Part shown: positions 7,829-64,000 of the stretch, piece by piece
Numbering within the stretch: position 1 is the stretch's first letter
Layout: every line of letters begins with the position of its first letter
Source of the DNA: Candidatus Zhuqueibacterota bacterium
GTDB lineage: Bacteria; Zhuqueibacterota; Zhuqueibacteria; Residuimicrobiales; Krinioviventaceae
Direction: 5' to 3'
Assembly (NCBI GenBank): GCA_016928775.1
Contig: JAFGKD010000094.1
Location: 9,504 to 73,503 of the forward strand
Length of the DNA: 64,000 nucleotides
Translations under genes and position numbers: made by a program
Notes under the pieces: generated by a model
Databases searched by the model: none
Seen by the model: the letters and a program-made list of their open reading frames with translations, nothing else
Told to the model about the DNA's origin: nothing

Positions 7829-8617
7829 TCAGACGAATGAATCCGAAAAGAACCATGTCGCAAGTTCCTTCGCGTCGACCGGTTTATGAGAATATTCATA
7901 ATCTATACGATTGACGGCCAAGGCGGCGCGGAAATTGGCCGCACACGCCAGGGGCTGAATTGAAAATTTCAATTCATCGTTTGGATAATGAATAGATCGT
8001 CGCAGGCCACTCTTTGAATCAGTCAGCACATCGACAGAAAACGAGTCCAGAGCAAGTGACAAACCGCGGCCCTTGGCTTTAATATACGCTTCCTTGCGCG
8101 TCCAGCAATCGTAAAAGCGGATCACACGCTCTCTTTCCGGAACCTGCTGCAGATCATCCAACTCGTCAGCGGAAAAGTATTTTTTCGCGATGTCAATGGT
8201 TGCAAAAGAGGGGCGCATATATTCAATATCAACACCGAGCTCATGACTCTGGCTGAACACAAACAGCGCTTGATTTTGGGAGTGCGAGACATTAAAGACC
8301 GTTTGTCTCTCTCGGCGCCTGTTTTCGACAAAAGGTTTGCCATAATCATTATAATCAAAGGTGATCTGGCGTGGATCAGTAGCCAGATAAAAACCTAACA
8401 AAATTCTCAGGATCAACCGGGCTGTTGTAAATCGGTCGCGATCGTGCGCAAAATAGAAACGTTTCGCCCTCTCGAGCTCGTCCTGTGATAAGATGGCATC
8501 TGCAAAAGACAACAAAGATTGACATAAATCCAGGTCAGCCGCCCAAACATGCACGGTTTCTCCGGACAATGGTAAATGGATGAGTGTCTTTTTCCATTCC
8601 ATTTCACGCCATCTCAA
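7829..8617 (-). CDS. Sfp-type 4'-phosphopantetheinyl transferase
   Basis: 262 aa with PPTase core motifs: FNVSHS, GVDIE, WTRKEAYIKAKG (the W/FxxKEAxxKA motif). The start overlaps the upstream thioesterase gene by 4 nt (8614..8617), which indicates translational coupling. Confidence 0.85.
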   Translation of the reverse strand: MRWREMEWKKTLIHLPLSGETVHVWAADLDLCQSLLSFADAILSQDELERAKRFYFAHDRDRFTTARLILRILLGFYLATDPRQITFDYNDYGKPFVENRRRERQTVFNVSHSQNQALFVFSQSHELGVDIEYMRPSFATIDIAKKYFSADELDDLQQVPERERVIRFYDCWTRKEAYIKAKGRGLSLALDSFSVDVLTDSKSGLRRSIHYPNDELKFSIQPLACAANFRAALAVNRIDYEYSHKPVDAKELATWFFSDSFV

Positions 8618-9384
8618 AAATGATTGTCAAGCAAGCTGCTCAAATCCTTTACTAATGTTTGCAATACCTCTTTTTCATGACTGTGCAGAAAAAAATGATC
8701 ACCGTCAAACTGACGCAGTTGGATTCCGGCGGTCGTATGCTGTTCCCAGGCCGCCAGGTCTTCTTGCTGGACATCCGTGTCATTGATACCGCCATAGACA
8801 GTAATAGGACACTCTAACGGCAAACCGGGCTTGAATGCAAAGGTCTCGCACACTTTAAAGTCATTGCGAATAATCGGCAAAAACAATTCTCGTAATTCCG
8901 GATTTGTCAATACGGCATCGGGTGTTCCATTCAAGGTTCTGAGCTTTTGCGTAAATTCGTCTTCTGGCAACCGATGAATGTGCTCCCGATCTTTGGACAC
9001 GTGTGGTGCCGCATGCGCAGATACGAATAAATGTACGGGTTGCGGCAAAAAGTATCGCCGCAGGAACCGTGTTAATTCGAAACTGATCAATGCGCCCATG
9101 CTGTGACCAAAAAACACAAATGGTTTGTCCAGATAGCCGGCGATGCCCTGGGCAATTTCCCTGACGATATCCGAAACAGAGTCCAATAATGGTTCGCCTA
9201 ATCGAGAGCCATGTCCTGGCAGCTCGATCGGCACAATCTGCATCTCCTCCGGAGAGGCATTATCCCAACCGCGAAAGACATTGGCGTTGCCGCCGGCATA
9301 ATGAAAGCAAAAGACGCGCACCCGCACGTCCGGTCGGGGAATAAAATTCAGCAGCCAGGGACTTGTCAGTCGGGTATCGATCAT
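8614..9384 (-). CDS. Type II (editing) thioesterase, alpha/beta-hydrolase
   Basis: 256 aa. GHSMGALISFE is the GxSxG nucleophile elbow typical of TEII. The N-terminal FCFHYAGGNANVFRGW is typical of GrsT/SrfAD-like proteins. A distal His lies in DGDHFFL. Confidence 0.85.
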   Translation of the reverse strand: MIDTRLTSPWLLNFIPRPDVRVRVFCFHYAGGNANVFRGWDNASPEEMQIVPIELPGHGSRLGEPLLDSVSDIVREIAQGIAGYLDKPFVFFGHSMGALISFELTRFLRRYFLPQPVHLFVSAHAAPHVSKDREHIHRLPEDEFTQKLRTLNGTPDAVLTNPELRELFLPIIRNDFKVCETFAFKPGLPLECPITVYGGINDTDVQQEDLAAWEQHTTAGIQLRQFDGDHFFLHSHEKEVLQTLVKDLSSLLDNHF

Positions 9385-62700: not shown

Positions 62701-64000
62701 TCCGGATGGCTGTAGACCAAAACGCGCTCCGGATCAACCGAACCCAAAACAGCAATTGCATCCTGGCGCGATTGACAAACAACCGCCATACGGTGGGGAA
62801 AACTTTTGCGGCCCAATTGCAGGGTAAACGCCACATCGGCCAGATTCACTTCAGGATTGTTTTCCAGAAAGACGACAAAATTTTCTCTGGCTTTCGACAG
62901 AGCCTGCTGTGATCTGGCGGACAGCAGCAGCAGTTGATGTTGGCGCGACTGCGTTGTTTTCACACGCTCGGGAGCGTCCTCCAATATCAGATGAACATTG
63001 GTGCCGCCTATGCCGAACGAGCTTACTCCGGCGAAACGCGGTGTACCCTCTGGGTGCCAATCGCGCAATTCGCTATTGACAAAAAAAGGTGAACTCTCAA
63101 GCTCCAATTTGGGATTGGGCGCAGTGAAATTGATGTTAGGTGGAATTTTTTTATGTTTTATCGCCAAAGCTGTTTTGATCAGGCTGGTGACACCGGCCGC
63201 AGCGTCGAGATGACCAACATTCGGTTTGACCGAGCCAATCGCGCAATATTGGGTCCGTTCCGTTCTCTCGCGAAACACTTTGGTGAGCGCGGTAATTTCA
63301 ATAGGATCACCCAGATTTGTTCCTGTTCCGTGCGTTTCTATATAGGTAATATCATCCGGCTCCACGCCTGAGACCAGTTGCGCTTCAGCAACAACATGCG
63401 CCTGGCCATCCACACTCGGCGCCGTATAGCCGACCTTGAGCGCGCCGTCATTATTGCACGCTGCGCCTTTGATGACCGCATAAATATTGTCATTGTCGGC
63501 CAGTGCATCTTCCAGGCGTTTGAGCAGCACCACACCGCAACCATTACCGGGCATGGTACCATTGGCATCAGCATCAAAGGCACGACAATGCCCATCAGGT
63601 GACAATATCATGCCTTCCTGATACAGGAATCCCGATTTTTGTGGAAATGTGATTGTACAGCCGCCGGCCAATGCCATGTCGGACTGATAGTTCACCAAAC
63701 TCTGGCATGCCAAAAAAACTGCGGTCAGGGAAGTCGAGCAGGCAGTTTGCACATCCAGACTGGGACCGCGCAGATTCAGCTTGTAGGAAACTTTGGTCGT
63801 TAAAAAGTCTTTTTCATTGCCGATGGAAATTTGGTAACCTTCCGCTGTGTCTATTTTACCTTCCGTGGCTGCGAGAAAAGGGATGATATAGGTGTTCATT
63901 CCGGCACCGGCAAATGTACCGATGAGACCGGGGAAACTATCCGGACAATAGCCGGCATTTTCCAAAGCTTCCCAGGCACATTCCAAAAACAAACGATGCT
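59715..64000 (-). CDS. Type I PKS module KS-AT-KR-carrier protein; N-terminus (start of KS and anything upstream) lies outside the window
   Basis: The frame stays open to the window edge. The ORF-track M is a TTG inside the conserved KS motif [26 protein letters not shown] (Cys at about 63738..63740), [45 protein letters not shown] (Ser about 62391..62393), HAFHS (malonyl-type). KR: [18 protein letters not shown] (about 60843..60866) and a K...S...[11 protein letters not shown] catalytic set. Carrier: [13 protein letters not shown]. C-terminal docking tail: [22 protein letters not shown]. Confidence 0.9.
   Translation of the reverse strand, partial: [1427 protein letters not shown]
59838..60050 (-). 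other. Carrier protein domain of the PKS module (PCP-like GGHSL phosphopantetheine site)
   Basis: [44 protein letters not shown]. Confidence 0.75.
60123..61565 (-). other. Ketoreductase domain (structural plus catalytic subdomains); no LDD motif seen
   Basis: Rossmann motif TGGLGNIG and catalytic Lys (FTSKIYG), Ser (FQSSLS) and Tyr (YAYAAANAY). The region before the catalytic subdomain reads [11 protein letters not shown] and lacks an LDD triad. Confidence 0.7.
61713..62690 (-). other. Acyltransferase domain, malonyl-CoA-type (HAFH)
   Basis: [14 protein letters not shown] and [10 protein letters not shown]; aa about 435-760. Confidence 0.75.
62973..64000 (-). other. Ketosynthase domain (partial)
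   Basis: Motifs as listed for the PKS CDS; aa 1 to about 340 of the in-window translation. Confidence 0.8.

What the first reader, a model, noticed from the sequence alone, without database searches (positions are those of the whole stretch)
7829..64000. A contiguous, tightly packed hybrid PKS-NRPS operon of at least 56 kb with 13 NRPS modules, and no chain-release domain in the window
Twelve genes lie on one strand with gaps of -4 to 161 nt. They are PKS(KS-AT-KR-CP), then NRPS A, B, C, D, E and F, then sulfotransferase, MFS, MbtH, TEII and PPTase. The domain order is colinear. The docking tails and heads pair PKS with A, A with B, and C with D. The E-terminated proteins B and D are each followed by a DCL-initiating protein (C and E). 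This gives a 3-hydroxyacyl-capped peptide of at least 13 residues, with D-configured residues at NRPS positions 3, 7 and 13 if the E domains are active. There is no TE, reductase or terminal C domain anywhere. F ends in an E domain with no DCL acceptor. The terminating module must therefore lie beyond the right edge, upstream of the truncated PKS. The same holds for the loading module (FAAL/ACP or equivalent) that feeds the KS. The pathway is therefore larger than what is visible.
Basis: seen in the sequence. Interest (0 to 1): 0.8.

Follow-up and report, generated by a model that had tools for sequence, protein, structure and literature searches.

The report
KSB1 lipopeptide synthetase lacking built-in release
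This is a real, giant gene cluster from an uncultured KSB1 bacterium for a fatty-acid-capped, probably sulfated peptide; its assembly line ends in an epimerase rather than a release domain in five related lineages, so release is probably by a separate enzyme, not a missing module.

Summary
Window 7829-64000 (minus strand) carries 12 genes with gaps of 5-161 nt: a 5'-truncated PKS (KS-AT-KR-ACP), six NRPSs with 13 C-A-T modules, a sulfotransferase, an MFS exporter, MbtH, a type II thioesterase and a PPTase. B, D and F end in intact E domains. C and E start with DCL domains. No TE, R or terminal-C domain sits in any synthetase.

A 100%-identical contig extends 5.7 kb beyond the right edge. It shows a fused FAAL-ACP-KS-AT-DH-ACP-C-A(Tyr-type)-T protein, so the loading module is where predicted. 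The in-window PKS therefore extends an aminoacyl chain into a statine-like unit, not a plain 3-hydroxyacyl cap.

No terminating module appears upstream in two relatives. The T-E terminus, followed by ST-MFS-MbtH(-TE-PPTase), is conserved in four relatives and under purifying selection. F alone lacks the C-terminal tail that B and D carry. The line is most likely complete and off-loaded in trans, perhaps by the RifR-like thioesterase, although one relative lacks it.

I rate this a new variant of a known kind, of moderate interest.

The parts
59715..64000 (-). PKS module KS-AT-KR-ACP. It is 5'-truncated by the window edge; the full gene is 1525 aa in L001. The AT carries HAFH (malonyl type). The C-terminal docking tail is ...[17 protein letters not shown].
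   Evidence: Pfam; translation; full-length gene in L001; motifs
56317..59694 (-). NRPS A: C-A-T (module 1). The code DAENIGAITK is of basic-residue type. The C domain reads HHIISDAWT. The head is an LSPEK docking type.
47374..56298 (-). NRPS B: C-A(Val/Ile-type)-T-ST-C-A(Gln-type)-T-E (modules 2 and 3). The E domain has a 33-aa C-terminal extension.
52204..52851 (-). CurM-type sulfotransferase domain embedded between T1 and C2 of B. The PAPS-binding motif PRSGSTLLRVMLAG and the PPEL motif are kept. The preceding T domain has GGNS.
   Evidence: Pfam; PDB 4gbm (CurM ST) E=1.7e-68 and 4gox 2e-58; T motif
40861..47310 (-). NRPS C: DCL-A-T-LCL-A(Phe-type)-T (modules 4 and 5). It has an LSEEE-type docking tail.
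32954..40855 (-). NRPS D: C-A-T-C-A-T-E (modules 6 and 7, both with basic-type codes). The E domain has a 36-aa COM-like tail, TPPKYDLAKLDKRQLGKVLGQL.
26568..32948 (-). NRPS E: DCL-A-T-LCL-A(Phe-type)-T (modules 8 and 9).
12369..26522 (-). NRPS F: four C-A-T modules (10-13, with Orn-, Asn-, Tyr- and Thr-type codes) followed by a terminal E domain.
12369..13715 (-). Terminal E domain of F. Motifs: HHLITDGVSWRF, EGHGRE, RTVGWFT, FNYLG. It follows a GGDS-type T domain. The protein stops right after the domain with no COM-type tail.
   Evidence: (TIGR01720, 96.5 bits); dN/dS 0.13 against L013
11192..12313 (-). Stand-alone sulfotransferase (Sulfotransfer_3, Stf-like). It is not of the CurM type.
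   Evidence: orthologues in the same position in L013, L014, L015 and L017
9699..11030 (-). MFS exporter (MFS_3 / EntS-like).
9394..9609 (-). MbtH-like protein.
8614..9384 (-). Stand-alone type II thioesterase. GHSMG, the Asp and the GDH motifs are intact. It is the only hydrolase in the operon.
   Evidence: Pfam; PDB RifR 6e-49, RedJ 1e-44, ClbQ 2.5e-38; sequence; dN/dS 0.15
7829..8602 (-). Sfp/HetI-type phosphopantetheinyl transferase.

Best explanation
The window holds about 56 kb of a roughly 66-kb FAAL-primed hybrid PKS-NRPS lipopeptide cluster. It comes from a candidate division KSB1 bacterium.

Proposed pathway, in gene order:
1. A fused FAAL-ACP-KS-AT-DH-ACP-C-A-T protein, just outside the window, loads a fatty acid, extends it once and adds a Tyr-type residue.
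2. The in-window KS-AT-KR-ACP extends that residue with malonate and reduces it, giving a gamma-amino-beta-hydroxy (statine-like) unit.
3. NRPSs A to F add 13 residues in gene order. The approximate sequence is basic, Val/Ile, D-Gln, X, Phe, basic, D-basic, X, Phe, Orn, Asn, Tyr, D-allo-Thr.
4. A CurM-type sulfotransferase domain embedded after module 2 sulfonates a hydroxyl of the tethered chain. A second, stand-alone sulfotransferase adds or handles another sulfate.
5. F is the last synthetase. The chain finishes on a T-E didomain with no cis release domain and is taken off in trans. The most likely agent is hydrolysis by the type II-family thioesterase three genes downstream, which would give a linear, sulfated, cationic lipopeptide exported by the MFS pump.

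Shown: the domain content and order, the E and DCL classes, the upstream loader, conservation of the T-E end, and the absence of neighbouring terminating modules in relatives.

Inferred: the substrate assignments, the sulfonation target, and the identity of the releasing enzyme.
For: - Architecture.
- Upstream FAAL-PKS-NRPS gene on a contig 100% identical to the window.
- Source organism.
- The T-E terminus with identical motifs, and no tail, is followed by ST-MFS-MbtH in L013, L014, L015 and L017.
- The cluster edges in relatives carry no further NRPS gene. Upstream edges are L002 and L016. Downstream, L017 has a LytTR regulator and an FG-GAP gene.
- B and D have 33-36-aa post-E extensions and F has none. 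The distance from the HH motif to the protein end is 332, 341 and 305 aa respectively.
- Purifying selection against L013: dN/dS is 0.13 for T-E, 0.10 for ST and 0.15 for TE.
- The TE is an intact RifR/RedJ/ClbQ-family enzyme.
- Type II TEs can release final products (review PMC10510592).
- The embedded ST is about 50% identical to CurM ST, with the cofactor motifs kept.
Against: - Relative L015 keeps the T-E end, ST, MFS and MbtH but has no TE or PPTase at the locus. The TE is therefore not an obligatory linked partner.
- By sequence the TE looks like an ordinary editing-type TEII.
- The roughly 8 kb upstream of the FAAL gene in this genome, and the rest of the MAG, could not be read.
- Substrate codes were interpreted from memory of published signatures.
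- Four codes are ambiguous. A1, D1 and D2 are only 'basic-type'; C1 and E1 are unknown.
Confidence: 0.55

Rival explanations
1. Release is in trans, but by an enzyme encoded elsewhere in the genome. Examples are a PBP-type (SurE-like) thioesterase or another cyclase that recognises the D-configured C-terminus. In this reading the linked TEII only edits mis-primed carriers.
For: - A terminal T-E didomain without a cis TE is the arrangement served by stand-alone PBP-type TEs (my knowledge of the surugamide and related systems; these TEs are described as stand-alone and trans-acting in PMC11735501).
- L015 lacks the TE yet keeps the T-E end.
- The TE is closest to the editing enzyme RifR.
Against: - No beta-lactamase or PBP-fold gene is in the window or in any relative's flanks.
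- The chain is N-acylated, so it cannot undergo the head-to-tail cyclisation these enzymes perform.
- PBP-type TEs are known from actinomycetes.
Confidence: 0.2
2. The assembly line is incomplete as seen. A further DCL-A-T-TE (or similar) synthetase, encoded upstream of the FAAL gene or elsewhere, accepts the D-residue from F and releases the product.
For: - By canonical logic an E domain is followed by a DCL acceptor, as for B to C and D to E here.
- About 8 kb upstream of the FAAL gene in this genome was not readable.
Against: - Two relatives show no NRPS gene upstream of the FAAL gene.
- Four relatives show none downstream.
- F and all four orthologous termini stop right after the E domain, without the extension that B and D carry.
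- Every other head and tail in the system already has a partner.
Confidence: 0.12
3. Off-loading is chemically coupled to sulfonation, a trans version of CurM-type ST-TE chemistry. The stand-alone ST would sulfonate the beta-hydroxyl of the T-bound C-terminal Thr. The TE would hydrolyse the thioester, and decarboxylative elimination would leave a C-terminal propenyl-amide.
For: - The last module has a Thr-type code.
- The ST gene follows F directly and is kept in all relatives.
- Many metagenomic NRPSs end in Thr- or Ser-type A-T-ST-TE with a CurM-type ST. ST-assisted termination on beta-hydroxy residues therefore seems to exist.
Against: - The stand-alone ST is Stf-like, not CurM-type.
- The TE is RifR-like, not CurM-TE-like.
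- L015 lacks the TE.
- There is no biochemical precedent for a trans version.
Confidence: 0.06
4. The cluster is a decaying remnant that lost its terminating module and makes nothing.
For: There is no cis release domain. A relic module (a C fragment fused to the end of an A domain, plus a T) lies upstream in L001.
Against: - All catalytic motifs are intact in 13 modules, 3 E domains, the ST and the TE.
- dN/dS is 0.10-0.15 across the tail genes.
- The same architecture is kept in five lineages.
Confidence: 0.03

Closest known systems
FAAL-primed cyanobacterial and myxobacterial hybrid PKS-NRPS lipopeptide pathways
   Same: - FAAL-ACP loading and CurL-like KS-AT linkers.
- A HetI-type PPTase and an MbtH-like protein.
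- Colinear C-A-T modules with E-to-DCL logic.
- Short helical docking tails and heads.
   Different: - The host is candidate division KSB1, whose secondary metabolism is almost undescribed.
- There is no cis TE.
- An ST domain is embedded in an elongation module.
- No close relative exists among GTDB species representatives. The best match to the stand-alone ST there is 43% identical.
CurM / olefin synthase ACP-ST-TE off-loading module
   Same: The embedded ST of B is about 50% identical to CurM ST (PDB 4gbm) and OLS ST (4gox), with the cofactor and catalytic motifs kept.
   Different: - Here the ST sits between a T domain and a C domain in NRPS module 2, not before a TE at the end of a PKS.
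- The preceding A domain is Val/Ile-type, so there is no beta-hydroxyl on the residue next to the thioester.
Planktothrix cyanopeptolin synthetase OciA (integrated sulfotransferase domain)
   Same: It is an NRPS with a built-in sulfotransferase domain (PMC2533009).
   Different: - In OciA the ST accompanies the glyceric-acid loading domain at the start of the line.
- Here it sits in the second elongation module of a much larger line.
- A second, unrelated stand-alone ST is also present.
Surugamide-type NRPSs off-loaded by stand-alone PBP-type thioesterases (SurE and relatives)
   Same: The final module ends in T-E with no cis TE, so release must be in trans (plus my knowledge of those clusters).
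   Different: - No PBP-fold gene is at or near this locus.
- The N-terminus is acylated.
- The only linked hydrolase is an alpha/beta-hydrolase TEII.
Type II thioesterases that release products (RedJ, ClbQ; NanE/MonCII in polyethers)
   Same: It is a stand-alone ~250-aa alpha/beta hydrolase with GxSxG. RedJ and ClbQ are among the best PDB matches.
   Different: Those enzymes act on PKS or ACP-bound chains or on intermediates. Release of a 14-residue peptide with a D-configured C-terminus has not been shown for this family.

Membership tests
Modular hybrid type I PKS-NRPS assembly line | KS-AT-(KR)-ACP and C-A-T modules on multidomain proteins, with catalytic motifs intact | tested here: met
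   Pfam; motifs
Modular hybrid type I PKS-NRPS assembly line | Each E domain is followed by a DCL-type C domain on the next protein | tested here: inconclusive
   Met for B to C and for D to E. Not met for F, which has no DCL partner in the window or in relatives' flanks.
FAAL-primed lipopeptide pathway | FAAL-ACP loading didomain at the start of the line | tested here: met
   Outside the window. L001's 3097-aa gene starts with AMP-binding + DIP2-like + PP-binding. The same holds in L002 and L016.
Cis-terminated NRPS (TE, R or terminal C domain) | A release domain fused to the last module | tested here: not met
   No PF00975 or PF07993 in any synthetase. The last domain of F is E-type.
PBP-type TE (SurE-like) off-loading system | The last module ends in T-E | tested here: met
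PBP-type TE (SurE-like) off-loading system | A stand-alone beta-lactamase/PBP-fold cyclase gene in the cluster | tested here: not met
   None among the window's non-NRPS genes or in relatives' flanks. The rest of the genome was not searched.
PBP-type TE (SurE-like) off-loading system | A free N-terminal amine for head-to-tail cyclisation | tested here: not met
   The chain starts with FAAL and PKS modules.
CurM/OLS ST-TE decarboxylative off-loading | A CurM-type (activating) sulfotransferase domain | tested here: met
   The ST of B against 4gbm gives E=1.7e-68 with motifs kept.
CurM/OLS ST-TE decarboxylative off-loading | ST immediately followed by a TE at the end of the line (ACP-ST-TE) | tested here: not met
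   The ST is followed by an LCL C domain. The only TE is stand-alone and RifR-like.
Type II thioesterase | A stand-alone ~250-aa alpha/beta hydrolase with a Ser-Asp-His triad, homologous to RifR/SrfD/RedJ | tested here: met
   PF00975 at 155.9 bits; RifR 6e-49; GHSMG, Asp and GDH present
Type II thioesterase | Editing versus product-releasing role | not testable with these tools
   This needs biochemistry or genetics. Absence of the TE in L015 argues against a strictly required linked role.
NRPS with an integrated ST domain (OciA-type) | An ST domain fused within an NRPS protein | tested here: met
   precedent in PMC2533009
NRPS with an integrated ST domain (OciA-type) | The ST acts on a hydroxy-acid starter loaded on the adjacent carrier | tested here: not met
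   The ST follows elongation module 2, whose A code (DAFFMGVTFK) is Val/Ile-type.

The most novel reading that the evidence does not exclude
The line is complete, and two unusual steps operate.

(i) A 14-residue lipopeptide with a D-configured C-terminus, tethered on a T-E didomain, is released by a type II-family alpha/beta-hydrolase, or through sulfonation of the terminal Thr. Either route would be a non-PBP solution to T-E termini outside the actinomycetes.

(ii) The CurM-type ST embedded in an elongation module activates the KR-made hydroxyl of the statine-like unit on-line. This would stand in for the missing DH and give a vinylogous tyrosine. Alternatively it installs a retained sulfate ester.

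The B-type protein (C-A-T-ST-C-A-T-E, about 2950-3000 aa) recurs in at least a dozen 50%-identity clusters, with varying A codes before the ST. This suggests a conserved target further up the chain.
Probability: 0.2. Interest if true: 0.7.

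Novelty: new variant of a known kind. Interest (0 to 1): 0.5.

Why it matters
- **Prediction pitfall.** An NRPS line that ends in T-E need not be a truncated cluster. Here the arrangement is conserved and under selection in a barely studied candidate phylum. 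Genome-mining tools and product predictions that assume a missing TE module would be wrong.
- **A testable release question.** The cluster offers a concrete case for asking how D-terminated chains leave a T-E didomain when no PBP-type thioesterase is present.
- **A large uncharacterised domain family.** The embedded CurM-type sulfotransferase belongs to a family of NRPS-integrated ST domains with more than 1000 clusters at 50% identity. These often follow Ser-, Thr- or Tyr-type modules or precede a TE. I found no report of their chemistry, whether a retained sulfate or a leaving group, in the papers searched.
- **Limits.** The cluster is otherwise a conventional hybrid PKS-NRPS. Its proteins are already deposited, though only with generic names.

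Tried and rejected
- **Exact-match DNA searches.** A 44-mer from beyond the right edge found nothing in genome contigs or in metagenome contigs.
- **Stand-alone ST against GTDB species representatives.** Only relatives of <=43% identity in unrelated contexts turned up.
- **FAAL of L002 against JGI metagenomes.** Only generic FAALs of <=50% identity turned up.
- **Reaching further upstream in this genome.** The 1107-aa NCBI version of A is not on record. The 3097-aa protein was not returned by the homologue search. The ~8 kb upstream of the FAAL gene therefore stayed unread.
- **Promoter and terminator scan of 7000-12600.** Counts were close to the shuffled expectation and uninformative about operon structure.
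- **CurM-like ST-TE off-loading of the terminal Thr.** I considered this and down-weighted it. The stand-alone ST is Stf-like and the TE is RifR-like.
- **Hidden release or tailoring domains.** I looked for any through motif spacing and found none apart from the ST insertion.
- **Literature.** Searches for the SRA run and for a described T-ST-C module or ST-driven dehydration in NRPS found nothing relevant.

Full report
**1. What is in the window**

All relevant genes lie on the minus strand. Pfam scans and motif mapping give this layout:

| Gene | Coordinates | Content |
|---|---|---|
| PKS | 59715->64000 | KS-AT-KR-ACP |
| A | 56317-59694 | C-A-T |
| B | 47374-56298 | C-A-T-ST-C-A-T-E |
| C | 40861-47310 | C-A-T-C-A-T |
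| D | 32954-40855 | C-A-T-C-A-T-E |
| E | 26568-32948 | C-A-T-C-A-T |
| F | 12369-26522 | four C-A-T modules plus E |
| Sulfotransferase | 11192-12313 | Sulfotransfer_3 |
| MFS exporter | 9699-11030 | MFS_3 |
| MbtH | 9394-9609 | MbtH-like |
| Thioesterase | 8614-9384 | stand-alone TE |
| PPTase | 7829-8602 | HetI-like |

- The PKS is cut by the window edge. Its KS has the Cys and both His residues, and its AT carries HAFH.
- With ATG starts that match independent gene calls, the gaps between genes are 5-161 nt. A 634-nt gap follows the PPTase.
- The next genes are secreted T9SS-tail proteins, not NRPS genes.
- The count of 13 NRPS modules is correct.

**2. Domain classes**

An all-against-all comparison of the 16 condensation-family domains gives three groups.
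- Eleven are LCL-like, 36-53% identical to each other.
- Two are DCL-like: the first domains of C and E. They are 40% identical to each other, about 24% to the rest, and begin IYPLSPMQQGMLFHS.
- Three are E-like: the last domains of B, D and F, 36-41% identical to each other.

The E domains carry HHxxxDG(V/L)SWR, EGHGRE and FNYLG. Each follows a T domain with GGDS instead of GGHS. F's last domain passes the TIGR01720 cutoff, scoring 96.5 bits against 74.2.

No thioesterase or reductase family hits any synthetase. The spacing between core motifs is nearly constant in all modules. The one exception is a ~355-aa insertion in B, which is the ST domain. The statement that no cis release domain is present therefore holds.

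**3. Assembly integrity and source**

The proteins match NCBI records of a candidate division KSB1 MAG on a 125,488-bp contig.

An independent Logan assembly of SRR13394437 yields two contigs. They are 100% identical to window 2369-42285 and 42259-64000. They overlap by 27 nt at the TSGSTGKPK motif of C's second A domain.

Every gene junction is thus reproduced. The only break falls at a conserved repeat inside an intact ORF. Nothing points to a chimera.

**4. Beyond the right edge**

Locus L001 extends 5.7 kb past position 64000.
- Upstream of the PKS lies a 3097-aa gene. Its precomputed Pfam list starts with FAAL (AMP-binding plus a DIP2-like domain) and a carrier, then KS-AT.
- The readable C-terminal 1558 aa are DH-ACP-C-A-T. 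The A domain has a Tyr-type code, DASTIAAVCK.
- Between this gene and the PKS sits a 238-aa relic. It fuses the first ~70 aa of a C domain to the last ~60 aa of an A domain, followed by an intact T. The relic is absent from relative L016.

By colinearity, however, the in-window PKS extends a T-bound acyl-Tyr. That gives a gamma-amino-beta-hydroxy unit rather than a 3-hydroxy fatty acyl cap. The full line has 2 PKS and 14 NRPS modules over about 66 kb.

**5. Is a terminating module missing?**

I traced relatives through homologues of the stand-alone ST and of the upstream gene.

Downstream end:
- L013 (ST 92% identical), L014 (68%), L015 (61%) and L017 (50%) all end their last NRPS with T(GGDS)-E. 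The motifs are the same, and the stop codon comes at the same place right after the domain.
- In each, ST, MFS and MbtH follow. TE and PPTase follow in three of the four.
- In L017 the genes beyond the PPTase are unrelated (a LytTR regulator and an FG-GAP protein). The cluster therefore ends at the PPTase.

Upstream end:
- L002 is from the same MAG as L014 and is 72% identical. Before its FAAL gene lie ATP-citrate lyase, a hypothetical gene and a FabG-like SDR.
- L016 is 59% identical. Before its FAAL gene lie only the end of a T9SS-tail gene and 1 kb of spacer.
- Neither shows another NRPS gene.

Within this window:
- B and D, which hand over to DCL partners, carry 33-36-aa extensions after their E domains. 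D's reads TPPKYDLAKLDKRQLGKVLGQL and is COM-donor-like.
- F stops 27-36 residues earlier, as do all four orthologues.
- Every other head and tail already has a partner of matching type: PKS, A and C tails pair with A, B and D heads, and E's basic tail pairs with F's acidic head.

Selection: against L013, dN/dS is 0.13 for the T-E end, 0.10 for ST, 0.15 for TE and 0.15 for MFS. The tail of the cluster is maintained, not decaying.

Taken together, F is most likely the last synthetase. The T-E terminus is a selected feature, not the stump of a missing module.

The caveat is that I could not read the ~8 kb upstream of the FAAL gene in this genome.

**6. How is the chain released?**

The only hydrolase in the operon is the 256-aa thioesterase.
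- It has GHSMG, the Asp and the GDH histidine.
- It matches RifR (6e-49), RedJ (1e-44), ClbQ (2.5e-38), SrfD-TEII and YbtT. It is a standard type II family member.
- Type II enzymes usually edit carriers but can release final products (PMC10510592). RedJ and ClbQ are off-loading examples (my knowledge).

I therefore favour hydrolytic release by this TE, giving a linear acid with a D-allo-Thr C-terminus. Confidence is limited, because L015 keeps everything else but lacks the TE and PPTase.

The main rival is an unlinked trans-acting enzyme. T-E termini without a cis TE are what stand-alone PBP-type thioesterases serve in actinomycetes (PMC11735501, plus my knowledge). No such gene is at or near any of these loci, and the N-acylated chain cannot be cyclised head-to-tail.

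**7. The sulfotransferases**

B contains a Sulfotransfer_3 domain between T1 and C2 (aa 1154-1369; window ~52204-52851).
- It is about 50% identical to CurM ST (PDB 4gbm, E=1.7e-68) and to olefin-synthase ST (4gox, 2e-58). PRSGSTLLRVMLAG and PPEL are conserved.
- The preceding T domain has GGNS.
- The stand-alone ST is a different branch. It is Stf-like, with PDB 2z6v at 1e-6, and shows only 27% local identity to the embedded one.

A full HMMER scan of 1.84 billion representatives found 1152 clusters at E<=1e-30. Among the best 150:
- Most are large synthetases.
- The T domain before the ST nearly always has GG(N/D/S/T)S.
- The upstream A code is often Thr-type (DFWNIGMVHK), Ser-type (DVWHISLVDK) or Tyr-type.
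- The ST is followed either by a C domain or by a TE.

A sub-family of ~2950-3000-aa proteins has the ST at residue ~1150, that is, the B architecture. In these the upstream code is mostly Val/Ile-type, with Tyr-like, Ser-type and Gln-type exceptions. One member has exactly this window's code, DAFFMGVTFK.

I infer that in this family the ST targets a hydroxyl further up the chain, either the KR-made hydroxyl or a Tyr phenol. Whether the sulfate is kept or serves as a leaving group cannot be decided here.

An integrated ST domain has a precedent in Planktothrix OciA (PMC2533009). There it accompanies a glyceric-acid loader.

**8. Predicted product**

Stachelhaus positions were extracted against GrsA. 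The residue readings below are my interpretation from memory of published codes.

| Module | Code | Reading |
|---|---|---|
| Upstream | DASTIAAVCK | Tyr |
| 1 | DAENIGAITK | basic |
| 2 | DAFFMGVTFK | Val/Ile |
| 3 | DAQDLGMVDK | Gln, then E |
| 4 | DGATVAGVAK | unknown |
| 5 | DAWTVAAVCK | Phe |
| 6 | DAEDIGSVVK | basic |
| 7 | DGEDIGTIIK | basic, then E |
| 8 | DVSLMGGIAK | unknown |
| 9 | DAWTIAAVCK | Phe |
| 10 | DVGEIGSVDK | Orn |
| 11 | DATKIGEVGK | Asn |
| 12 | DASTVAAVCK | Tyr |
| 13 | DFWNIGMVHK | Thr, then E |

The prediction is a cationic, aromatic-rich lipopeptide with one or two sulfates. I know of no characterised compound that matches it.

**9. Verdict**

The loader lies upstream, as predicted. 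The chemical cap is mis-described, and the claim that a terminating module 'must' lie upstream is contradicted by the conserved boundaries in relatives and by F's tail-less terminus.
- This is a new variant of a well-known kind of system, found in a barely explored phylum.
- Its distinctive points are the conserved T-E terminus with no cis or linked PBP-type release function, and the CurM-type ST embedded in an elongation module.
- Interest is moderate.

Noticed in passing
window 52204-52851 (minus), within gene B: A CurM-type sulfotransferase domain is embedded between T1 and C2 of NRPS B (T-ST-C). It is about 50% identical to CurM ST. The finding does not mention it. The preceding T domain has GGNS instead of GGHS.
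   Followed up: yes
proteins P0366-P0509, analysed: CurM-type ST domains integrated in NRPSs are common in metagenomes, with 1152 clusters at E<=1e-30. They often follow Thr-, Ser- or Tyr-type A domains and a GG(N/D/S)S carrier. Either a C domain or a TE comes next. The A(Thr/Ser)-T-ST-TE ends suggest ST-assisted termination on beta-hydroxy residues. Several proteins carry two ST domains.
   Followed up: partly
L001 4607-5323 (about 0.4-1.1 kb beyond the window's right edge): A 238-aa relic gene fuses the first ~70 aa of a C domain directly to the last ~60 aa of an A domain, followed by an intact T domain. It overlaps the 3' end of the FAAL-PKS-NRPS gene. Its T is about 65% like the preceding T. 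Relative L016 lacks it. It looks like the scar of a module duplication followed by an internal deletion.
   Followed up: partly
L001 1-4677; L016 3480-10760; L002 3537-4298: The first PKS module is KS-AT-DH-ACP, with no KR, in this genome and in relatives. A FabG-like SDR gene lies just upstream of the cluster in L002 and could supply the reduction in trans.
   Followed up: no
L015 8823-9497: The relative from ENA ERZ4756920 keeps the T-E end, ST, MFS and MbtH. It has no thioesterase or PPTase. An 88-aa ORF with no family match sits in their place.
   Followed up: partly
window 3283-7194 and 1823-3211 (minus): A 1303-aa PPC/Big_1/F5-F8-type-C protein and a Kelch-repeat protein, both with T9SS sorting tails, follow the cluster on the same strand. 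The PPC gene is syntenic in L013, L014 and L015 but not in L017. It is probably ancestral neighbourhood rather than part of the pathway.
   Followed up: partly
window 1-~1512 (minus): An ORF of at least 504 aa runs off the left edge. It has a signal-peptide-like start and DGDGD-rich (FG-GAP/VCBS-like) sequence. The ORF lister shows only a 159-aa piece, because ORFs that touch the edge are not listed.
   Followed up: no
window ~59160 (gene A, C domain motif at aa 177): The C domain that should accept the chain from the PKS ACP reads HHIISDAWT (Gly to Ala, Ser to Thr) instead of HHxxxDGWS.
   Followed up: no
L100 (NCBI GCA_024275455.1): A more distant cluster, about 40% identical and colinear with B then C, appears to have two tandem T-ST units before the next C domain. 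Its gene calls are fragmented.
   Followed up: partly
proteins P0251, P0259 and many ~430-450-aa hits: Cyanobacteria (Anabaena PCC 7108, Sphaerospermopsis, Leptolyngbyaceae and others) encode many stand-alone carrier-ST didomain proteins with a CurM-type ST. I do not know of a described function for them.
   Followed up: no
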